Shown: positions 11,896-51,130, counted from the stretch's first letter. The stretch is DNA of 64,000 nucleotides from an uncultured delta proteobacterium (GCA_963774015.1 CAVZDH010000001.1:451064-515063), one strand, 5' to 3'. A program made the numbers and translations. The notes: generated by a model from the sequence alone, not told the origin.

Positions 11896-12753
11896 TCAGG
11901 ACGGCGGGCGGGTGGACGCCAGTTTTCCGTAGCTCGTGAGCACGACGCCGCGCGCCGCCACGATCGCGCGGGCGTCCGCATCCACCAACGCCTCAAGCTC
12001 GGCCCGTGGCGCCCGCCGCGGATCGTCGTCGGCGGCCGTGGAGGGGTGCAGGTAGATCTCGGTCACGCCGGCAGGAAGGGCGGCGAGCAGCGCCCGCAAG
12101 TGATCTCGCGTCATTCGTCCATCCTGGTAGAGACCCCACACCCGGTCGGCCGTCGCGAGCCCGGCCGCCCGCACCTTTCGGGCCGCATGCCGCCCGAGCC
12201 AGCGAAACATCAGCCAATGACTGAGCTTGTACCCGAGCCGCCCGTGATCCAGCCGCAGATTCAGACGCAGGTCGTCACGGACGACGCGCAACGCCGGGAT
12301 CCGATACTCCGCCGCGCACTCCAGCAGGATCGTCAAGACCTGCGGGTGCATGTGGATGTGCTGATGACCGGTGACGTGATCGAGCCGGAGGCCCGTCGCG
12401 TGGAAGCGCGCGAGCTGCGCCCGGATCTCGTCGACGAGCTCCCGACGAGCACTGCGCGAGAACTGGTAGCGAAATCCCGCCCAGGGCGAGCTCGCCGGCA
12501 GGCGTCCGTCGGCGTCCACGAGGTGGGGGATCCGCGCGGCAGGCAATGCCGAACGTGCGAGCGAGAGCGCGAGGTGGAGCCCCACGGCGAGGCTCGGGGT
12601 GGCATGCGCCGCCGCCACCGCCGGCTCCCACGCGGCGCCGGTCACCATCATGCTCGCCGTCGTGAGGATGCCGCGGCGATGAGCGTCGACGACCGCCGCG
12701 TTGACCGCGTCCGACGCGCCGAAGTCGTCGGCGGTCACGATGAGCTGGCGCAT
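11896..12753 (-). CDS. hpnK: Hopanoid biosynthesis-associated YdjC-like deacetylase HpnK
   Basis: MRQLIVTADDFGASDAVNAAV N-terminus and HxH motif GHQHIHMHP typical of YdjC/HpnK carbohydrate deacetylases. Confidence 0.75.
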   Translation of the reverse strand: MRQLIVTADDFGASDAVNAAVVDAHRRGILTTASMMVTGAAWEPAVAAAHATPSLAVGLHLALSLARSALPAARIPHLVDADGRLPASSPWAGFRYQFSRSARRELVDEIRAQLARFHATGLRLDHVTGHQHIHMHPQVLTILLECAAEYRIPALRVVRDDLRLNLRLDHGRLGYKLSHWLMFRWLGRHAARKVRAAGLATADRVWGLYQDGRMTRDHLRALLAALPAGVTEIYLHPSTAADDDPRRAPRAELEALVDADARAIVAARGVVLTSYGKLASTRPPS

Positions 12754-42522: not shown

Positions 42523-43110
42523 CCCGATCGCCAGATGATGACGACTGGTGATTCGCATCGTCGACTCCAGTCGCGCGAGGTTTCGCGCCGCTACGAAGAC
42601 CGCATGCGGTCCGTTGAGGGGGCCCGGTGGATCGCTACACTCATTGCGCGATCAGCGGAGGTGTCAAAGGAATTCGTCCACCACACTCACGAAAACGTGA
42701 TCCATTTCGGCATACGGATACCCGAGGATCGTGTCGTCATGGCGACGATCCGTGACGAGCTCCAGCTGCATCGCGCATGCCAACGCGTGACGCTGCCATC
42801 GCCCAGGGATTGTGTCGCCGTGATGTCGCTGCCGTTCTCGAATCGGGAAATTCTCCGCCGCCTTTTCTCAGCGCATGGACGGCGCGCCGCGGCCGCGGCG
42901 GCGCGCGATCACGTGGCCTTGCTACGACGGGGCGAATTGGGGAGTGCGACGACCAGGGAGGTTCCGCGGCAGTGGCGGTGATTTCGGGAACCGCGACAGA
43001 GGCGAGCGGTAGGCAGCGACGCGTGGTTCTTGCAGGCCGCAGTGCTGGCAGGCGGACGCCGCCCGCCATTGCGGCGAGCGGCGTCCCGTCCGTCCGAACG
43101 ACTACTTCTT

Positions 43111-45533
<2,423 letters not shown>

Positions 45534-45757
45534 GCGGGTGCCTCCTCCAAAAACTCGAGGCGGGAAGGGAGGACAGCCCGACCAGCCTCTAAGGTTTCGA
45601 GTGGTTGGCCGCCCGGACGAGAAGGCAAGGACGCCGTGACGTCTGCTTCCCGCGAGCGCTTCTGCGCACTCCCGACGAACTTGCCGGCCGCCCGAGGACG
45701 GGCCGGCATGAAAACCGGCGTTGTCTAGCATCGGACGGGGGGAATTGCGAGAGCGCG

Positions 45758-45767
45758 GCCGCGTGGG
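45758..45767. repeat. Left copy of 10-bp flanking direct repeat GCCGCGTGGG (candidate target-site duplication)
   Basis: Identical 10-mer at 51086-51095; left copy abuts the outer end of the left inverted repeat. Confidence 0.55.
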
Positions 45768-45779
45768 TAGTGTCTCAGT

Positions 45780-46377
45780 GTCTCATTCTGGGAGGGTGGA
45801 ACCCCTCACCTTCAGGTGACGCCTTCAGGAGGCTTGCGGTACGGTGGGCGGCATGCGGACCTACCGGCGCGCGTCGCACAGTGTGTATGAGCTGCACTAC
45901 CATTTCGTGTTCACCACGAAGTACCGCAAGCCGGCGTTGACGGGCGATGTGGCCCTCGAAGTGCGCGGGATGGTGCGACAGATTTGTCGGGCGAACGACA
46001 TTGAGATTCTGGCGGGGCACGTACGTCCCGATCACGTGCACCTGTTGTTGAGCGTGCCGCCGCATCTGGCTCCGAGTCGGGTGATGCAAGCGATCAAAGG
46101 GAAGACCTCGCACCGGCTGCTCATGGACCACCGGAAGTTGAGGGCGGCGTTCTGGGGCCGGCATCTGTGGAGCCGGGGGTACTTCGTGTGCAGCAGCGGC
46201 AATGTGACTGATGAGATGATCGCGGAGTACATCCGGACGCAAGATGCCGAGCCCCAGGACGACGACCGGTTCAAGGTGAGTGAGTGACATGGTCATGAGC
46301 TTGCAGCGCACGGCGAGGGTCTTCAGGCGCCTTTAGGCGCCCGCGAACCCGCCGCCTTTAGGCGGCGGAGGGCTCAG
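45780..46377 (+). mobile_element. IS200/IS605-family insertion sequence (tnpA only), inserted within the left inverted repeat of the IS1-family element
   Basis: Encodes Y1 HUH transposase; subterminal hairpins (left: TCACC-TTCA-GGTGA about 45806-45820; right: GGCGCC-TTTA-GGCGCC 46326-46341 and GCCGCC-TTTA-GGCGGC 46351-46366); boundaries +/- 5 bp. Confidence 0.7.
45853..46287 (+). CDS. tnpA: IS200/IS605-family transposase TnpA (Y1 HUH)
   Basis: HUH motif in YELHYHFVFTTKYRKP, conserved DHVHLLLSVPP and catalytic Tyr region (RGYFVCSSGNVTDEMIAEYI). Confidence 0.9.
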   Translation: MRTYRRASHSVYELHYHFVFTTKYRKPALTGDVALEVRGMVRQICRANDIEILAGHVRPDHVHLLLSVPPHLAPSRVMQAIKGKTSHRLLMDHRKLRAAFWGRHLWSRGYFVCSSGNVTDEMIAEYIRTQDAEPQDDDRFKVSE

Positions 46378-46482
46378 TTTGATTCCGGGCGCCCGATTCC
46401 GACCCGCGCAACCGCCGACGACGTGTGCTAGCTTCCGCGACGATGCCGAAGGGCCCCCCGAGGCGAGAAGCGCCCCGCTGAC

Positions 46483-46671
46483 GTGATCGGCAACGCCGTG
46501 CATGTCATGCGCATCGCGACCGGCGAGGTGGAGGATCAGGTGCGCGACCCGGCGAAGGAGCACATGCGCCAGGGCGGGCTCAAGGGCGGCGTGGCGCGGA
46601 AGAAGGCGTTTTCACCTGAGAAGCGGAAGGCGATCGCGAAGAAGGCTGCGCGTGCGCGCTGGGGGAGTTAG
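46483..46671 (+). CDS. Small hypothetical protein with basic Lys/Ala-rich C-terminus
   Basis: 62-aa ORF; C-terminus GGLKGGVARKKAFSPEKRKAIAKKAARARWG; converges on the PIN-like gene; coding status uncertain. Confidence 0.3.
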   Translation: MIGNAVHVMRIATGEVEDQVRDPAKEHMRQGGLKGGVARKKAFSPEKRKAIAKKAARARWGS

Positions 46672-47108
46672 TCCCCTCTTCGACGGCTTCGACGATGCAG
46701 GGTCAGTAGGTCTGTTTCCGTGTAAACCTTCACTATTTCCCCATCAGCCGAAATCTTGGTGAAGAACGGGGCCGGGTAGCGGTTGATCACGCGGGCCATG
46801 CCTCGCAACCCGTCGTCAAACGCTTGCGCCATTCGGTCGGCAGTCATGTCCGCCCTGGTGAACCCAAACAGGCGAGCCCGTGATTGTAGGATCTCGAGCC
46901 GTTCACTGACGTCGCTGACTATGCCGTCGTTCTTGGTGAGGCCGATCCAACCGCTTCGACCCACAAGACGAATCCAGGGTTCGTCGCCGCCCTCTGGCTG
47001 CTGATCCAGGTTGTTGCCCGCGAACAGAAGGGCGTGTTCGCGAATAGGCCAACCGCGTTCGCGTAACAGAGTCGGGAGTCTCCGACCGAGGGATCGATCG
47101 GTGAACAC
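46668..47108 (-). CDS. DUF5615-like PIN-type protein (putative toxin)
   Basis: 146 aa; N-terminus FTDRSLGRRLPTLLRERGW resembles the DUF5615 (Mut7-C/PIN-like) start; immediately downstream of and co-oriented with a DUF433 gene, the usual partner. Confidence 0.5.
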   Translation of the reverse strand: MFTDRSLGRRLPTLLRERGWPIREHALLFAGNNLDQQPEGGDEPWIRLVGRSGWIGLTKNDGIVSDVSERLEILQSRARLFGFTRADMTADRMAQAFDDGLRGMARVINRYPAPFFTKISADGEIVKVYTETDLLTLHRRSRRRGD

Positions 47109-47128
47109 TCCGGTCTGTGCAACGATCG

Positions 47129-47896
47129 CTAGGCTGCGTTCTCGTAGAGCAACGCGTCCGTGATGTCCGCCAGCGGCCGGCAGTAGTCCTCGGCGAGCGC
47201 CTCGATCGATTCACCGGCGCGTTTTCGTTCAGCCACGATTCGGGTACGGATATCGGTTCCGGCGATCACGGGTCGCCCATAGGCGTAGCGTGGGTGAATC
47301 AGGATGCGTCGGGCACTCGGAGCGGGGCCATCGATCTGGGCTTCTGTAGCGAAGGGAAACACGCCGATAGCGCCTGCCGGGTCGAATTGAATGCGTTCCA
47401 AGTAGCGGATTAGGACGTCACGCATGCCAACCTGGGCAACCGATGGGCTATCGGAGATATTCAACACAACCGCATCTTCGAGCGAATCCAGAAACAGACT
47501 GTACCCGTCCGTCAGCATCCGCGACGTTGCTAACGGATGTTCGGATTTGAATTCCCTGCGCAGATGCACTATTGCGTTGCGTACTTTCGGTAGCTTGATC
47601 CCGTAACGACGCCGTACCGAATCGAGTACAAAAACTTCCACGAGATTCGTAAACGACAGCAAACCGCGTTCGCGGTCAGCTATCTTGATCAGCGGATGCC
47701 ACGTCCGGTGACCGTCAGATACCGGATAGTCTCGACCGTACACCCAGGTGCGAACGGTGCTCGCCGGAACCTTCAAGTAGCTCGCGGCGCTAGCGACTGG
47801 GTAGTTCGGGACATGTCGCGGATCGACATCGCGGTAGCTCAGTATCGTGTCCGCTTTTGGCATCTTGACGTACCTGCACCAAGCATACACGGGCAC
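47129..47896 (-). CDS. HTH plus DUF433 domain protein (putative antitoxin/regulator)
   Basis: C-terminal DUF433 signature RILIHPRYAYGRPVIAGTDIRTRIVAERKRAGESIEALAEDYCRPLADITDALLYE; N-terminal HTH-like segment (AASYLKVPASTVRTWVYGRDYP); central region unassigned. Confidence 0.65.
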   Translation of the reverse strand: MPVYAWCRYVKMPKADTILSYRDVDPRHVPNYPVASAASYLKVPASTVRTWVYGRDYPVSDGHRTWHPLIKIADRERGLLSFTNLVEVFVLDSVRRRYGIKLPKVRNAIVHLRREFKSEHPLATSRMLTDGYSLFLDSLEDAVVLNISDSPSVAQVGMRDVLIRYLERIQFDPAGAIGVFPFATEAQIDGPAPSARRILIHPRYAYGRPVIAGTDIRTRIVAERKRAGESIEALAEDYCRPLADITDALLYENAA

Positions 47897-48060
47897 GGCA
47901 GTTCAAGGGAGAGCCGTTTGCATTCGCTAAGTTAGCGGACTGCCGAGAACATCAAGGGGCTGGTCGTTCTCCGGTCGTGCGTCGAGACGGTAGATTACCG
48001 GGCGACAATCAGGTGAAACTTTTGCTTGACACTCAAGTATTATTGTCATATCATTGCGGC

Positions 48061-48969
48061 ATGAACAAGTTGCCGGTTGCCACGCGGGTCCAGATCCTCT
48101 CGATGCTCTGCGAAGGCTCCTCGATGCGCTCGATCAGCCGGGTCGCTGACGTCTCGATCAACACCGTCGCCCGCTACCTCGTGATCGCCGGCAAAGCGTG
48201 CAGCGCGTTCCACGACGTCACCGTTCGCAACGTCGCTGCGAAGCGCGTGCAGTGCGACGAAATCTGGTCGTTCGTCGGGATGAAGGAGAAGGCCGCGAAG
48301 GCGAAGGCGTCGAAGGACGAGCGACCCGCGAACGTCGGCGACGTGTGGACGTGGACAGCGATCGACGCCGACTCGAAGCTGATCGTGTCGTGGCTCCTCG
48401 GCGGTCGCGATGCAGGGTGCGCGTGGGAGTTCATGACCGACGTCGCGTCGCGGCTTGCGAACCGCGTGCAGCTCACGACCGACGCGCACAAGGCGTATCT
48501 CACGGTCGTGCCCGAGGCATTCGGCTTCAACGTCGACTACGCGCAGATCGTCAAGGTCTACGGCGCCGATCCGAAGGAGGATCAGCGCCGCTACTCCCCG
48601 GCGCAGTGCCTCGGCGCCGAGAAGCTGCACATTCACGGCTACCCGAAAGACGAACACATCTCGACGTCGTATATCGAGCGCAGCAACTTAACGCTCAGAA
48701 TGGCGAACCGCCGCTTCACGCGGTTGACCAATGCGTTCTCGAAGAAGCTGGAGAACCACGCGCACATGGTCGCGCTCTACACGTGCTGGTACAACTTCGT
48801 GAAGATGCACAAGACGATTGGCTGCACCCCCGCGATGGCGGCCGGCGTGATCGACACGCTCTGGTCGATGACCGATCTCGTGGCGCTCGTCGACAAGTAC
48901 GACGACGCGCAGCCGCGCAAGAAGGCGGGGCGTAAGCCGAAGGCGACCGATCCGGGTTCTCAGTCATGA
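48061..48969 (+). CDS. IS1-family transposase (fused InsA-like HTH and InsB-like DDE domain)
   Basis: InsB-like blocks VQCDEIWSFVGMKEK, WTWTAIDADSKLIVSW, LTTDAHKAYL, IERSNLTLRMANRRFTRLTNAFSKKLENHAHMVALYTCWYNFVKMH match E. coli IS1 InsB pattern (VQSDELWTFVG...IERHNLNLRQ...); N-terminal HTH VATRVQILSMLCEGSSMRSISRVADVSINTVARYL. Confidence 0.85.
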   Translation: MNKLPVATRVQILSMLCEGSSMRSISRVADVSINTVARYLVIAGKACSAFHDVTVRNVAAKRVQCDEIWSFVGMKEKAAKAKASKDERPANVGDVWTWTAIDADSKLIVSWLLGGRDAGCAWEFMTDVASRLANRVQLTTDAHKAYLTVVPEAFGFNVDYAQIVKVYGADPKEDQRRYSPAQCLGAEKLHIHGYPKDEHISTSYIERSNLTLRMANRRFTRLTNAFSKKLENHAHMVALYTCWYNFVKMHKTIGCTPAMAAGVIDTLWSMTDLVALVDKYDDAQPRKKAGRKPKATDPGSQS

Positions 48970-49154
48970 GCCCGAAGGTCCGACGAGTGCTCGTCGGCTT
49001 CATTATCAGCTTCCTGATTCTTACTGGCTGCGAGGTCGCTGCGCGACTCTATCTCGACTGGGTTAAGACGAGCGGGGCATCCCGAGCCTGCACTGCACTC
49101 GGCGGCACGTGGGATGCGCCGGCCCGGCATTGCGCGAGCCCGGAATCAAACTGA
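48966..49154 (+). CDS. Small hydrophobic peptide ORF translationally coupled to the IS1-type transposase
   Basis: ATG overlaps transposase stop (ATGA); predicted TM or lipoprotein-like segment VLVGFIISFLILTGC; 3' end overlaps right inverted repeat; coding status uncertain. Confidence 0.3.
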   Translation: MSPKVRRVLVGFIISFLILTGCEVAARLYLDWVKTSGASRACTALGGTWDAPARHCASPESN

Positions 49155-49162
49155 GACACTAG
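49139..49162. repeat. Right terminal inverted repeat of IS1-family element
   Basis: GCCCGGAATCAAACTGAGACACTA is the exact reverse complement of the reconstructed left repeat. Confidence 0.6.
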
Positions 49163-51085
49163 TGCGCCGGTCAAAACCGGCAAGGTGTTGTGGATGAAAG
49201 AGCCACACGATGAAGGAGTAGCGACCCACATCGGCCCCGAGTCATGCGTCGCTGTCCGTGAGGGCAGAGGCGAAGCGTTGACAGGGGTACGTGCAGGCCA
49301 GCCATGGAGCCGCGAAAATCAATTATAGCCTCGGGTGCCGACGCTCTTAGTGTAAGCGGAAGGCAACATCGCAGTGCGTCGATATCGCGAGAGGCGGCGG
49401 ACCCGGCGCGGTCGAAGACCCTGCGCATGCACGGAAACACTTTGCACGGGAACCGGGAGATCCCGCCACCGTCTGGGAGCCGGAGTGGCCCAGACCGCAT
49501 CGGGAAGTCGAGAGACGCAATCCGATGACGCACGGTGACGGGAAGTCGGACACCGCCGTAGTACCGAGAGAAGCTGCCGAACAAAGCTGCGGAACCAGCG
49601 GCGGAGGCGGTGGAGGGAAGGGCGGTGGCCAAGGGGAAGACGCTCGAGCGTAACACGCTCCGGACGCAGAGCCGGGAAGGTGTGCCCAGCGCGCTCGAGC
49701 GGATACGAGAGGCCGCAAGGCAACAGAAGCAGCTGCGTTTCACCGCGCTCCTGCACCACGTCTACGACGTCGAACGGCTGCGGCGGGCCTACTACGCACT
49801 GAAGCGAGAGGCGGCGGCGGGAATCGACGGGGAGACGTGGAAGCACTACGGCGAGCAGTTGGGAGAAAATCTGCAAGACCTGTCCCAGCGGCTCAAACGG
49901 GGAGCGTACCGAGCCAAGCCTGTACGGCGGGCGTACATCGAGAAGGCGGACGGGCGGCAGAGGCCGCTCGGCGTTCCCGTGCTGGAGGACAAGATCGTCC
50001 AGCGCGCCGTCGTCGAGGTGCTCAACGCCATTTACGAACAGGACTTTGCGAGGTTCTCGTATGGATTCCGCCCGGGGCGCGGACCGCATGATGCCCTGAA
50101 CGCGCTGACGGTGGCGATCCAGACCAGAAAGGTGAGCTGGGTGCTCGACGCGGACATCAGAAGCTTCTTCGACACGCTGGAACACAGCTGGTTGGTGAAG
50201 TTCGTCGAGCATCGGGTGGCAGACCGGCGCATCGTGCGCCTCATCCAGAAGTGGTTGAGGGCCGGGGTGCTGGAAGAAGGTCGGCGGACACGTAGCGAGG
50301 TAGGGACGGTACAGGGCGGAAGCATCAGCCCGCTGCTGGCCAATATCTACCTGCACTACGTGTTCGATCTGTGGACCCAGCGATGGAGAAAGAAGCAGGC
50401 GCGCGGACAGGTCATCGTCGTGCGCTACGCCGACGACTTCGTCCTTGGGTTCGAGCATCGCCACGAGGCCGAGCAGTTCCTCGTGGATCTCAAGCAGCGG
50501 TTTTCCCAGTTTGGCTTGGAGCTGCACCCGGAGAAGACCAGACTGATCGAGTTCGGGCGGTTCGCCGCCAGCAATCGCGATCGGCGAGGACAGGGAAAGC
50601 CCGAGACCTTCGACTTCCTTGGCTTCACGCACAGCTGCGGGAAGACGCGGAAGACGGGGAGCTTTGTGGTGCTGCGGCGAACGATGCGCAAGCGGATGGC
50701 GGCGAAGCTGCAGGAAGTGAAAGCCGAACTGCGACGACGTCGGCACACGACCCTTGGCGAGCAGGCGGAGTATCTGCGAGCGGTGGTGCAAGGGCACATG
50801 CGGTACTATGGCGTGCCCCGCAACTTTCCAGCGCTCAACGCGTTCCGCTGGGCGCTCGGCCGACTGTGGTGGCGGTCGTTAGGCCGCCGCAGTCAACGCG
50901 GCCGCATCCCCTGGCAGCGCATGACGCGTATCCTACGTCTGGCACTGCCGCGTGTTCGCATCTGTCATCCCTATCCGTCCTTGGACGCATCTCGTCAGAA
51001 CCTGAGGCAGGAGCCGGATGCGGTAATGCCGCACGTCCGGATCTGTGCGGGGGGCGCCGAGCGATCGGCGTCCCTACCGCGACCC
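49163..51085 (+). mobile_element. Bacterial group II intron (ribozyme plus intron-encoded protein)
   Basis: 5' end GTGCGCC at 49163 (consensus GUGYG); RT/maturase ORF; domain V-like hairpin at 51011-51043; GNRA-capped hairpin at 51050-51073; 3' end near 51083-51085 (CGAC/CC), boundary +/- 3 nt. Confidence 0.8.
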
Positions 51086-51130
51086 GCCGCGTGGGAGGCC
51101 CTCATGGCCGCTGCCGGGGCGGAGAGATAA
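49610..51130 (+). CDS. Group II intron-encoded reverse transcriptase/maturase
   Basis: RT domains 0-7 (RPLGVPVLEDKIVQRAVVEVLNAIYEQDFARFSYGFRPGRGPHDAL; DADIRSFFDTLEH; YADDFVLGF) and maturase X domain; no HNH endonuclease domain seen; computed ORF runs through domain V, so true C-terminus is uncertain. Confidence 0.9.
   Translation: MEGRAVAKGKTLERNTLRTQSREGVPSALERIREAARQQKQLRFTALLHHVYDVERLRRAYYALKREAAAGIDGETWKHYGEQLGENLQDLSQRLKRGAYRAKPVRRAYIEKADGRQRPLGVPVLEDKIVQRAVVEVLNAIYEQDFARFSYGFRPGRGPHDALNALTVAIQTRKVSWVLDADIRSFFDTLEHSWLVKFVEHRVADRRIVRLIQKWLRAGVLEEGRRTRSEVGTVQGGSISPLLANIYLHYVFDLWTQRWRKKQARGQVIVVRYADDFVLGFEHRHEAEQFLVDLKQRFSQFGLELHPEKTRLIEFGRFAASNRDRRGQGKPETFDFLGFTHSCGKTRKTGSFVVLRRTMRKRMAAKLQEVKAELRRRRHTTLGEQAEYLRAVVQGHMRYYGVPRNFPALNAFRWALGRLWWRSLGRRSQRGRIPWQRMTRILRLALPRVRICHPYPSLDASRQNLRQEPDAVMPHVRICAGGAERSASLPRPAAWEALMAAAGAER
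51011..51043 (+). ncRNA. Group II intron catalytic domain V
   Basis: GAGCCGGAUGCGG-UAAU-GCCGCACGUCCGGAUC closely matches the domain V consensus GAGCCGUAUGCGAU-GAAA-GUCGCACGUACGGUUC, including the AGC triad. Confidence 0.6.
51086..51095. repeat. Right copy of 10-bp flanking direct repeat GCCGCGTGGG
   Basis: Identical to 45758-45767; lies just 3' of the group II intron. Confidence 0.55.

What the first reader, a model, noticed from the sequence alone, without database searches (positions are those of the whole stretch)
45758..51095. Nested mobile-element hotspot: IS1-family element with 24-bp inverted repeats and a 10-bp flanking direct repeat, with an IS200 element and a group II intron inserted at its two ends
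Directly visible: the 24-mer TAGTGTCTCAGTTTGATTCCGGGC occurs as a perfect inverted copy at 49139-49162, while the left copy is split into TAGTGTCTCAG (45768-45778) and TTTGATTCCGGGC (46378-46390) by a ~600-bp segment encoding an IS200-type TnpA. The 10-mer GCCGCGTGGG abuts the left repeat (45758-45767) and recurs at 51086-51095, but the ~1.9 kb between the right repeat and that second copy is exactly filled by a group II intron (GTGCG at 49163, domain V at 51011-51043). The simplest history is: IS1-type insertion between hppA and trmO generating a 9-10 bp target duplication (the IS1 family typically makes 8-9 bp duplications), followed by IS200 insertion into the left repeat and intron insertion precisely at the right-repeat/target junction. 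Three different mobile elements stacked on one site, with passenger genes inside, is uncommon.
Basis: partly seen in the sequence, partly recalled or inferred. Interest (0 to 1): 0.75.

Follow-up and report, generated by a model that had tools for sequence, protein, structure and literature searches.

The report
Intron that targets a transposon's end
A cargo-carrying IS1-family transposon sits between hppA and trmO, and both of its ends are split by other mobile elements: an IS200-type element by ordinary short-motif targeting, and a group II intron whose close relatives all sit at this same transposon-end sequence. It is a clear but not unprecedented case of one mobile element parasitising another.

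Summary

- **IS1-family element.** It spans 45766-51085 and is 2,799 bp without its two inserts. It has perfect 26-bp inverted repeats (GGTAGTG...), not 24-bp ones. Its target duplication is 8 bp (GCCGCGTG), not 10 bp.
- **Independent support.** Two relatives (L001, L124) show the same GG...CC tips and 8-bp duplications.
- **Group II intron (49162-51083).** It lies 2 bp inside the right repeat, not at the IS/target junction.
- **Not a coincidence.** Copies at 88-93% DNA identity have 8 distinct 5' flanks and 9 distinct 3' flanks. Every observed flank fits ...CTGA(G/C)NC(A/G)CTA | intron | CC. Most 5' flanks are IS1-type ends or 127-188-bp miniature elements (MITEs) carrying those ends.
- **RNA-guided targeting.** The intron's EBS1 and EBS2 pair with the outermost repeat bases. 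Relatives with other targets show matching EBS1 changes.
- **IS200/IS605 element (45779-46377).** It follows a CTCAG pentamer, as its closest relatives do in unrelated DNA. This is ordinary targeting.
- **Empty site.** Related genomes have hppA and trmO adjacent and colinear. That supports an empty site at the level of gene order only.

A direct precedent exists: RmInt2 in the ISRm17 inverted repeats. I rate this a new member of a known kind, of moderate interest.

The parts
45758..45765 (.). Left copy of the 8-bp target-site duplication, GCCGCGTG
   Evidence: It abuts the GG tip of the IS and is identical to 51086-51093. Related elements also have 8-bp duplications: TGACCGTG in L001 and CGCGGCGA in L124.
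45766..45778 (+). Outer 13 bp of the left inverted repeat of the IS1-family element (GGTAGTGTCTCAG)
   Evidence: Joined to 46378-46390, it gives a 26-mer that is the perfect reverse complement of 49138-49161 plus 51084-51085. The tip fits the IS1-family end motif GGnnnTG (PMC6807381).
45779..46377 (+). IS200/IS605-family element, 599 bp, carrying tnpA only (about 45856-46287). It is inserted 3' of CTCAG and its own right end is ...GGGCTCAG.
   Evidence: PF01797 E=1e-40 and NF033573 152.6 bits. Homology with L040 and L041 stops exactly at these two coordinates. The closest relatives also lie 3' of CTCAG in unrelated flanks. Subterminal hairpins are present.
46378..46390 (+). Inner 13 bp of the left inverted repeat (TTTGATTCCGGGC)
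46443..46671 (+). Small basic ORF ('orfA') that is conserved in this IS group. In the window its first 13 codons are out of frame because of a private +1 base in the C-run at 46454-46459. The open frame runs 46483-46671.
   Evidence: About 80% amino-acid identity to the equivalent ORFs of L001 and L124, whose cargo differs. DNA homology is limited to this module, the tnp gene and the repeats. The frameshift is shown. No Pfam match.
46668..47108 (-). Passenger gene: PIN-like nuclease (PIN_10), a presumed toxin
   Evidence: PF18478, 33.6 bits against a cutoff of 26.2. No PADLOC hit.
47129..47896 (-). Passenger gene: HTH_66 + DUF433 protein, the presumed antitoxin or regulator partner
   Evidence: PF04255 36.3 bits and PF21321 26.6 bits
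48061..48969 (+). IS1-family DDE transposase, a single 302-aa ORF
   Evidence: PF03400, 29.3 bits (cutoff 24.1). NF033558, 69 bits (below its cutoff of 100).
48966..49154 (+). Small 62-aa ORF whose start overlaps the tnp stop. It has a lipoprotein-like N-terminus (…LILTGC…) and ends inside the right repeat.
   Evidence: ORF list. No family match. The lipobox reading is my own inspection of the sequence.
49138..49161 (-). Inner 24 bp of the right inverted repeat. On the + strand its last 14 nt are the intron's IBS2 (AAACTGA), a G, and IBS1 (ACACTA).
49162..51083 (+). Group II intron, 1,922 bp. It starts with GTGCG. EBS2 is at about 49321-49327 and EBS1 (TAGTGT) at 49349-49354. The intron-encoded RT/maturase runs about 49526/49610-51002, with no endonuclease-domain match among the Pfam and NCBIfam hits. 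D5/D6 lie at 51009-51083.
   Evidence: Rfam RF02005, 180 bits, and RF00029, 41.3 bits. TIGR04416, 362 bits. Twelve further copies are homologous end to end, from base 1 to base 1922. Two private +1 insertions at 49567 and 50983 disturb the reading frame.
51084..51085 (+). Terminal CC of the right inverted repeat, cut off from the rest of the repeat by the intron
   Evidence: CC follows the intron in all 14 IR-targeted copies in the fetched loci (L030-L039, L120-L123) whose 3' end is present (13) and in the window, while everything after it varies. Uninterrupted elements end ...CACTACC.
51086..51093 (.). Right copy of the 8-bp target-site duplication, GCCGCGTG

Best explanation
**What is there.** A 2.8-kb IS1-family 'transporter IS' inserted into the divergent hppA-trmO intergenic region and made an 8-bp duplication. 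Its layout is:
- left 26-bp repeat;
- a small conserved orfA;
- a PIN_10 / DUF433-HTH cargo pair on the opposite strand;
- the transposase gene (tnp);
- a small lipoprotein-like ORF;
- right 26-bp repeat.

**First invader: the group II intron.**
- Its protein gave no endonuclease-domain match in the Pfam or NCBIfam scans.
- Its EBS1 (UAGUGU) pairs with ACACUA.
- Its EBS2 (UCAGUUU in relatives, UCAAUUA here) pairs with AAACUGA.
- Those are the outermost bases of the IS1-type repeat, so the intron retrohomed into the right repeat.
- It lies in the same orientation as tnp and splits off the terminal CC.

**Second invader: the IS200/IS605 element.** It integrated 3' of the CTCAG pentamer that happens to lie in the left repeat. 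That also splits the mirror-image intron target at that end.

**Consequence (inferred).** With both tips separated from their transposase-binding parts, the IS is probably immobile. Private +1 frameshifts in orfA and in the intron's protein suggest the nest is decaying.

**Shown:** the boundaries, repeats and duplication; the recurrent intron target; the EBS/IBS complementarity and covariation; the IS200 target motif; and colinearity of the flanks with related genomes.

**Inferred:** the order of the two secondary insertions, immobilisation of the IS, retrohoming at replication forks, and toxin-antitoxin function of the cargo.
For: **IS ends and duplication**
- The window, L001 (3479-7562) and L124 (3461-6473) all have GGTAGTG...CACTACC tips flanked by 8-bp duplications.
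- GGnnnTG is the IS1-family end motif (PMC6807381).

**Intron boundaries**
- The Rfam D5/D6 model ends at 51083.
- Homology covers bases 1-1922 in 12 further copies.

**Intron target**
- Copies at 88-93% DNA identity have 8 distinct 5' flanks and 9 distinct 3' flanks.
- Every observed 5' flank reads ...CTGA(G/C)NC(A/G)CTA before the intron.
- Every observed 3' flank starts with CC followed by variable sequence.
- Five of these loci carry a 127-188-bp MITE with an IS1-like left repeat upstream.

**RNA guidance**
- EBS2 (UCAGUUU) is a perfect complement of AAACUGA.
- EBS1 covaries with its target: UAGUGU/ACACUA, UAGUGG/CCACUA in L123, and GGAGAG/CUCUCC in L129 and L130.

**IS200**
- Its ends are defined by homology.
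- The CTCAG target recurs in seven closest relatives, in unrelated contexts.

**Insertion into the hppA-trmO spacer**
- L015, L009 and L012 align across the junction once 45766-51093 is removed.

**Foreign origin**
- G+C is 0.59-0.64 in the elements against 0.687 for the window.

**Precedent**
- RmInt2 lies in the inverted repeats of ISRm17 (PMC4615759).
Against: - No nucleotide-exact empty site was found. The 8-bp target lies in a stretch that varies between species.
- The window is the only locus where the intron is seen in a full-length IS. The other fetched loci hold MITEs, solo or degenerate repeat-like sites, or 5' flanks too short to classify. tblastn found no transposase in any of them.
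- L120's 5' exon matches only the last 11 nt of the repeat.
- In the short-read metagenome contigs, left and right flanks do not form matching duplications. Different contigs also share one flank but not the other. They are probably chimeric across the repeated intron.
- Ten of the intron copies carry the identical protein and come from sample series with near-consecutive accession numbers, so they are not fully independent.
- The window's EBS2 has two mismatches to the target (5 of 7 pairs).
- The IS1 assignment of the transposase is weak at profile level (NF033558, 69 bits against a cutoff of 100).
- No reads were available to verify the junctions.
Confidence: 0.85

Rival explanations
1. The IS has 24-bp repeats (TAGTG...), it made a 10-bp duplication (GCCGCGTGGG), and the intron later landed by chance exactly at the junction between the right repeat and the target.
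For: The 10-mer does occur at 45758-45767 and 51086-51095. Read that way, it abuts the 24-mer on the left.
Against: - The intron ends at 51083, not 51085.
- In L001 and L124, TAGTG...CACTA ends would leave no abutting duplication, whereas GG...CC ends give clean 8-bp duplications.
- CC follows the intron in every related copy, whatever the flank beyond it.
Confidence: 0.03
2. The IS arrived at this site already carrying the intron, the IS200 element, or both, and the whole composite transposed as a unit.
For: - Nothing in the window dates the insertions relative to the IS's arrival.
- Intron-bearing MITEs occur with several different flanks. DNA-level spread of the composite could in principle produce that.
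Against: - The intron separates the terminal CC from the rest of the repeat by 1.9 kb, and the IS200 element splits the left repeat 13 bp from its tip.
- The intron's last bases (…CCGCGAC) do not resemble the repeat, so they offer no substitute end.
- Terminal GG is essential in the related GGnnnTG-ended IS26 (PMC6807381).
- Efficient retrohoming into each repeat copy explains the multiple flanks more simply.
Confidence: 0.07
3. Assembly artefact. Repeated mobile elements were joined wrongly, so the nesting is not real.
For: - Related metagenome contigs do look chimeric across this intron.
- The window shows an odd excess of private +1 insertions in hppA, orfA and the intron's protein gene.
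- Reads could not be examined.
Against: - Removing the two inserts restores a perfect 26/26 inverted repeat.
- Removing the whole element and one duplication copy restores colinearity with three related genomes.
- A random misjoin would not give base-exact reconstitution at four junctions.
- A GC3 phase scan shows normal long coding frames elsewhere in the window.
Confidence: 0.05

Closest known systems
RmInt2 group II intron in the terminal inverted repeats of ISRm17 (Sinorhizobium meliloti; PMC4615759)
   Same: - The intron's protein shows no endonuclease domain (no such match in the Pfam/NCBIfam scans here).
- The natural homing site lies inside the terminal repeat of an insertion sequence.
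- Because the site is a repeat, each IS offers two potential targets on opposite strands.
- EBS2/IBS2 pairing is relaxed.
   Different: - The host IS family differs: IS1-type here.
- The host bacteria differ: high-G+C relatives labelled Polyangiaceae, Deltaproteobacteria or Binatia.
- The intron lineage differs. It matches Rfam D1D4-6, and by my reading its protein's C-terminus lacks the class D motif LX3AX3PXLF[V/A]HW.
- The insertion point is only 2 bp from the IS tip.
- MITE derivatives are used as targets too.
- No mobility assay exists for this intron.
RmInt1 in ISRm2011-2 (IS630 family; PMC5894124)
   Same: The intron lineage uses a multicopy IS as its natural target. Insertion is thought to block spread of the IS.
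   Different: RmInt1 inserts inside the transposase gene, not in the terminal repeat.
IS1 family: single-ORF and passenger-carrying members ('transporter IS'; PMC3129680; IS1 end motif in PMC6807381)
   Same: - GGnnnTG tips.
- Inverted repeats of about 25 bp.
- 8-bp duplication.
- DDE transposase matching PF03400.
- Passenger genes between the repeats.
   Different: - The transposase is one 302-aa ORF without the classical InsA/InsB' frameshift.
- It scores below NCBI's IS1 cutoff.
- It carries a conserved small orfA next to the left repeat.
- The cargo slot differs between elements whose transposases are 79-90% identical to the window's.
IS200/IS605 family (for example IS200 and IS608)
   Same: - Y1 HUH transposase.
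- No inverted repeats and no duplication.
- Subterminal hairpins.
- Insertion 3' of a short conserved target (CTCAG here), which is echoed at the element's right end.
   Different: Nothing notable. It is a tnpA-only member, and its position inside another element's repeat looks incidental.
IStrons (group I intron + IS200/IS605 chimeras; PMC4227781)
   Same: A ribozyme and a DNA transposon are physically associated.
   Different: An IStron is one fused element that moves by the IS machinery. Here the intron is a separate retroelement parasitising the IS end, and the IS200 element is unrelated to the intron.

Membership tests
IS1 family insertion sequence | DDE transposase of the IS1 type | tested here: inconclusive
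   PF03400 scores 29.3 bits (cutoff 24.1) but covers only residues 200-240. NF033558 scores 69 bits, below its cutoff of 100. Many close homologues are named IS1 family transposase by their sources.
IS1 family insertion sequence | Terminal inverted repeats beginning GGnnnTG | tested here: met
   GGTAGTG at both tips once the split halves are rejoined. The same holds in L001 and L124. Motif as given in PMC6807381.
IS1 family insertion sequence | Target-site duplication of 8-9 bp | tested here: met
   8 bp in three independent elements: GCCGCGTG, TGACCGTG and CGCGGCGA.
IS1 family insertion sequence | InsA/InsB' organisation with a programmed -1 frameshift (classical IS1) | tested here: not met
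   A single 302-aa ORF. This fits the single-ORF or passenger-carrying subgroups that I recall from ISfinder, not classical IS1.
IS200/IS605 family | Y1 (HUH) transposase TnpA | tested here: met
   PF01797, E=1.1e-40. NF033573, 152.6 bits against a cutoff of 55.
IS200/IS605 family | No terminal inverted repeats and no duplication; insertion 3' of a conserved 4-5-nt target | tested here: met
   Excising 45779-46377 restores the 26-bp repeat exactly. CTCAG precedes the element in the window and in L040, L041, L049, L043, L047, L090 and L091.
IS200/IS605 family | Subterminal hairpins at both ends | tested here: inconclusive
   Hairpins are predicted: TCACC-TTCA-GGTGA on the left, and GGCGCC-TTTA-GGCGCC plus CCGCCGCC-TTTA-GGCGGCGG on the right. 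The right one is conserved in relatives. The folding z-scores are not significant (0.43 and -0.97).
Mobile group II intron | Ribozyme domains: 5' GUGYG, D1-D4, and D5/D6 ending in AY | tested here: met
   GTGCG at 49162. RF02005, 180 bits. RF00029, 41.3 bits against a cutoff of 40. The intron ends ...CGAC.
Mobile group II intron | Intron-encoded RT/maturase in domain IV | tested here: met
   TIGR04416, 362.5 bits against a cutoff of 300. In this copy the frame is disturbed by private +1 insertions at 49567 and 50983.
Mobile group II intron | EBS1/IBS1 and EBS2/IBS2 pairing with the 5' exon | tested here: met
   EBS1 UAGUGU pairs with ACACUA (6 of 6). EBS2 pairs 7 of 7 in relatives and 5 of 7 here. 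EBS1 covaries with the target in L123, L129 and L130.
Mobile group II intron | Splicing and retrohoming activity | not testable with these tools
   This needs RT-PCR and a homing assay.
IS-end-homing introns (RmInt2 type) | Multiple copies of the intron at the same position inside IS terminal repeats | tested here: met
   All 14 copies in the fetched loci (L030-L039, L120-L123), plus the window, show the repeat-tip context wherever a flank is present. A full-length IS is seen only in the window. MITEs with matching left repeats are seen in five loci.
IS-end-homing introns (RmInt2 type) | Both the left and right repeats are used as targets | not tested
   In the window the left-end target is destroyed by the IS200 insertion. 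MITE left repeats differ from the target at two positions. No left-end insertion was observed.
Type II toxin-antitoxin pair (DUF433 + PIN) | Adjacent small genes for a PIN-like nuclease and a DNA-binding partner | tested here: met
   PIN_10 (46668-47108) and HTH_66 + DUF433 (47129-47896) lie on the same strand, 20 bp apart. Toxicity and neutralisation were not tested. No PADLOC hit.

The most novel reading that the evidence does not exclude
A sublineage of group II introns lacking a recognisable endonuclease domain has retargeted, through changes in EBS1 and EBS2, from a ...CCTCTCC|C site (still used by relatives at about 80% identity) to the outermost 14-15 nt of IS1-family terminal repeats. 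It now lives as a dedicated parasite of these transposons and their MITEs in high-G+C soil bacteria, separating the essential terminal GG/CC from the rest of the repeat and so disabling each end it enters. Its host IS family is itself a modular shuttle. It keeps a conserved orfA and transposase, but its middle slot swaps toxin-antitoxin or defence-like cargo: PIN/DUF433 here, a P63C protein, HEPN_AbiU2, and an HTH_3/M78-like protein in others.
Probability: 0.55. Interest if true: 0.5.

Novelty: new member of a known kind. Interest (0 to 1): 0.4.

Why it matters
- **It explains the oddity.** The nest looked like an unlikely pile-up. Most of it follows from target specificity: the intron is there because the IS end is its homing site.
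- **It adds a natural example.** The only precedent I found in the literature searched is RmInt2 in the ISRm17 repeats. This case comes from a different intron lineage, a different IS family, and MAGs labelled Polyangiaceae, Deltaproteobacteria or Binatia.
- **It has unusual features.** MITEs serve as extra targets, and the insertion point is only 2 bp from the tip. That position should disable the transposon end.
- **It is a traceable retargeting case.** EBS1 covaries with the target between sublineages, so target switching in this intron family can be followed.
- **Practical lesson for annotation.** Ends of IS1-type elements must include the GG/CC tips. Short-read contigs that cross such introns can be chimeric.

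Tried and rejected
- **Exact empty site.** A scan of genome contigs for the predicted junction (GAGCGCGGCCGCGTGGGAGGCCCTC) gave no match. Only synteny-level support was obtained, through TrmO relatives.
- **Exact-protein look-ups.** The window's transposase, its TrmO and P0001 are not on record. No conspecific contig with or without the insertion could be fetched.
- **Duplications around intron-bearing MITEs.** I looked for matching flanks in L030-L038. Left and right flanks do not match, and contigs share one flank but not the other. I judged these contigs chimeric across the repeat and did not use them for duplication length.
- **IS200 specificity for the repeat.** Rejected. The closest relatives lie 3' of CTCAG in unrelated DNA. 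The window has 41 CTCAG sites on both strands.
- **Intron mimicry of the IS end.** I considered whether the intron's 3' end resembles the IS end, which would let a composite transpose. There is no resemblance.
- **General assembly indel error.** I tested whether the window's frameshifts reflect assembly-wide error. A GC3 phase scan shows them concentrated in hppA.
- **Cargo as a known defence system.** PADLOC gave no hits on the cargo or small ORFs. Pfam found nothing on the small ORFs of related elements.
- **Conserved hppA leader.** Rfam gave no hit even at E<=1.
- **Transposase next to other intron copies.** tblastn found none in the 14 intron loci searched.

Full report
**1. Checking the observation**

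- The 24-mer TAGTGTCTCAGTTTGATTCCGGGC has one perfect inverted copy in the window. It lies at 49138-49161, one base left of the stated position. No shuffle of the window produced a match.
- Its left copy is split into 45768-45778 and 46378-46390.
- GCCGCGTGGG occurs at 45758-45767 and 51086-51095. It also occurs at 12627 on the minus strand, and 0.92 copies per window are expected by chance. Its weight therefore comes only from its position.
- The segment that splits the left repeat encodes an IS200-type Y1 transposase (PF01797, E=1e-40; NF033573, 152.6 bits).
- The large ORF at 48061-48969 is an IS1-type transposase at modest profile scores. PF03400 gives 29.3 bits, above its cutoff. NF033558 gives 69 bits, below its cutoff of 100.
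- The 1.9-kb right-hand segment is a group II intron. RF02005 (D1-D4) scores 180 bits, RF00029 (D5/D6) scores 41.3 bits, and the RT/maturase model TIGR04416 scores 362 bits.

**2. Correct boundaries**

The Rfam D5/D6 match ends at 51083. That leaves CC (51084-51085) before the 10-mer.

Independent evidence for the intron ends comes from homology.
- Ten loci encode an intron protein 91% identical to the window's (P0127). Eight hold the whole intron and align to window 49162-51083 from base 1 to base 1922; two are cut at their 5' end but reach base 1922.
- Four full-length copies at 80-93% DNA identity (L120, L121, L123, L130, L129 less L122, which is cut at its 3' end) do the same. In total 12 further copies span bases 1-1922.
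- The intron is therefore 49162-51083, and GTGCG starts at 49162.

The two leftover bases belong to the IS.
- With them, the repeat is a perfect 26-mer, GGTAGTGTCTCAGTTTGATTCCGGGC, at both ends.
- Two related elements have transposases 90% and 79% identical to the window's. They are L001 (3479-7562, 4,084 bp) and L124 (3461-6473, 3,013 bp).
- Both have the same GGTAGTG...CACTACC tips, flanked by clean 8-bp direct repeats: TGACCGTG and CGCGGCGA. With TAGTG...CACTA ends those elements would have no abutting duplication.
- GGnnnTG is the end motif reported for the IS1 family (PMC6807381).

In the window, therefore:
- the IS occupies 45766-51085;
- the duplication is GCCGCGTG (45758-45765 and 51086-51093);
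- the apparent 10-bp repeat is this 8-mer plus the IS's own GG on the left and a chance GG in the right flank.

**3. The intron is at its homing site, not at a random spot**

The 14 copies in the fetched loci L030-L039 and L120-L123 show 88-93% DNA identity to the window's intron.
- They have 8 distinct 5' flanks and 9 distinct 3' flanks.
- Every observed 5' flank reads ...(A)CTGA(G/C)NC(A/G)CTA before the intron.
- Every observed 3' flank starts with CC, and everything after CC differs.
- In L030, L033, L036, L037 and L038 the 5' exon is a 127-188-bp MITE. Its left end (GGTGGTGCCTCACTTTGAT...) is the inverted counterpart of the intron-bearing right end.

The targeting is RNA-guided.
- The loop TAGTGT at 49349-49354 (EBS1) is complementary to ACACTA, the last six bases of the 5' exon.
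- The internal-loop sequence UCAGUUU in the P0127-type copies (EBS2) is a perfect complement of AAACUGA at -14 to -8.
- The window, L120 and L121 carry UCAAUU(A/C) instead. This keeps 5 of 7 pairs in the window.
- EBS1 covaries with the target. L123 has UAGUGG opposite CCACUA.
- More distant relatives, L129 and L130 (80-82% DNA identity), have GGAGAG opposite CUCUCC. They sit in a quite different site...CCTCTCC|C.
- The repeat-targeting habit is thus a derived retargeting within this intron clade.

Three further points bear on how the intron moves.
- Pfam matched only RVT_1 in the intron protein, and NCBIfam matched only RT-type families. No endonuclease-domain match was returned by either.
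- From published work on RmInt1 and RmInt2, I infer that such introns integrate at replication forks. This was not tested here.
- The intron lies in the same orientation as tnp and the small downstream ORF, so read-through transcripts could supply intron RNA.

**4. The IS200 layer is ordinary**

- Eighty metagenomic relatives of the TnpA were fetched.
- Homology with the closest two, L040 and L041, stops exactly at 45779 and 46377.
- Seven close relatives (L040, L041, L049, L043, L047, L090, L091) lie immediately 3' of CTCAG in unrelated flanks.
- The right ends of L040 and L041 also finish in ...GCTCAG. More distant relatives use TTAG, TTAA or TTAC.
- This is the usual behaviour of the IS200/IS605 family: insertion 3' of a short target, with no duplication.
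- The left repeat simply contains a CTCAG. The window has 41 such sites on both strands.
- A side effect is that the insertion splits the mirror-image intron target at the left end, between AAA and CTGA.

**5. The host IS and its cargo**

Without its two guests the IS is 2,799 bp.

Only four modules are shared with L001 at the DNA level:
- the repeats;
- a 230-bp block containing a small basic ORF;
- the tnp gene;
- about 50 bp upstream of tnp.

The small ORF ('orfA') is about 80% identical across the window, L001 and L124.

The cargo between orfA and tnp differs from element to element:

| Element | Cargo |
|---|---|
| Window | PIN_10 nuclease plus an HTH_66/DUF433 protein, a toxin-antitoxin-like pair |
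| L001-L006 | An HTH_3/M78-like protein and unknown ORFs |
| L124 | A P63C-domain protein |
| L007 | A HEPN_AbiU2 gene, downstream of tnp |

IS copies carrying passenger genes are known as 'transporter IS' (PMC3129680). PADLOC recognised none of the window's cargo.

**6. The insertion site**

- No exact empty site exists in the species-level genome collection.
- TrmO relatives come from MAGs labelled Polyangiaceae, Deltaproteobacteria or Binatia, and are at most 87% identical.
- In L015, L009 and L012, hppA and trmO are adjacent. They align continuously with the window once 45766-51093 is removed.
- L010 and L013 carry an unrelated 877-aa ORF at that spot, and L011 has about 400 bp of unrelated DNA. 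The spacer is therefore variable in this lineage.
- Conservation of the hppA leader stops exactly where the duplication begins.
- The mobile elements have lower G+C (0.59-0.64) than the window (0.687).

**7. State of the nest**

- Both IS tips are cut off from the inner parts of their repeats. I infer the IS is immobile. Terminal GG is essential in IS26, which shares the GGnnnTG end (PMC6807381).
- orfA has a private +1 base in a C-run.
- The intron's protein gene has two private +1 bases, at 49567 and 50983. They put the first 28 codons out of frame and remove the normal stop codon.
- The IS transposase and the IS200 tnpA are intact ORFs.

**8. Comparison with what is known**

- The closest precedent is RmInt2. 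All of its copies lie in the inverted repeats of ISRm17, giving two targets per IS on opposite strands (PMC4615759).
- RmInt1 similarly lives in ISRm2011-2, and its insertion is thought to block spread of that IS (PMC5894124).
- The present case has the same logic with different players. The intron is a different lineage, the host is an IS1-type element, and MITEs serve as extra targets.
- Its insertion point is only 2 bp from the tip.
- It is a new member of a known kind, not a new mechanism.

**9. Limits**

- No reads were available, so the junctions rest on base-exact reconstitution of the repeat and the flanks.
- Ten intron copies carry the identical protein and come from sample series with near-consecutive accession numbers. 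Those contigs appear chimeric across the intron.
- A full-length IS with the intron is seen only in the window.
- The order of the IS200 and intron insertions is unknown.
- Function of the cargo and of orfA is inferred from domain matches only.

Noticed in passing
window 43100-45540 (minus strand): hppA (H+-pyrophosphatase) is broken into many frames. It has about 16 private indels, 13 of them single-base insertions that are mostly not in homopolymer runs. The orthologues in L010, L013 and L015 are single intact ORFs of about 800 aa. A GC3 phase scan shows that frame switching is concentrated in this gene. It is probably a pseudogene next to the mobile-element nest, but the strong bias towards insertions is odd and a local sequence-quality problem cannot be excluded.
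   Followed up: partly
window 45534-45757 (minus strand); L009-L013 and L015 equivalents: The roughly 220-nt 5' leader of hppA has long invariant blocks across seven genomes, for example GGGAGUGCGCAGAAGCGCUCGCG and GCCUUCUCGUCCGGGCGGCCAACCACUCGAAACCUUAGAGG. It has no Rfam match even at E<=1. RNAalifold gives -67 kcal/mol but little covariation (6 compensated pairs). It may be an undescribed cis-regulatory RNA. The IS is inserted exactly where this conservation ends.
   Followed up: partly
window 46454-46459, 49567, 50983: There are private single-base insertions in orfA of the IS and at two places in the intron's protein gene, relative to all relatives. Together with hppA, 16 of 19 private frame-disrupting indels in this region are +1 insertions.
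   Followed up: partly
L001 3479-7562; L124 3461-6473; L007 1-1900: Closely related IS1-type elements keep the repeats, orfA and tnp but carry different cargo. L001 has an HTH_3/M78-like protein plus unknown ORFs, L124 has a P63C-domain protein, and L007 has HEPN_AbiU2. This suggests a modular cargo slot for toxin-antitoxin or defence-like genes.
   Followed up: partly
L030, L033, L036, L037, L038: These loci carry 127-188-bp MITEs with IS1-type ends, each with the intron in its right end. Contigs share a left flank but differ in the right flank, and the reverse also occurs. This indicates chimeric short-read assembly across the 1.9-kb repeated intron.
   Followed up: partly
L129 4638-6554; L130 162-2079: Relatives of the intron at 80-82% DNA identity sit in a different target (...CCTCACC..CCTCTCC|C) and have a matching EBS1 (GGAGAG). 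This documents a target switch within the clade.
   Followed up: yes
L010 5555-7946; L013 equivalent; L011 1880-2270: The hppA-trmO spacer holds unrelated sequence in other species: an 877-aa ORF in L010 and L013, and about 400 bp of unrelated DNA in L011. This spot is variable even without recognisable mobile elements.
   Followed up: no
window 48966-49154: A 62-aa ORF starts by overlapping the transposase stop codon (ATGA). It has a lipoprotein-like signal sequence (…FLILTGC…) and ends 7 nt before the intron insertion point. No family match.
   Followed up: no
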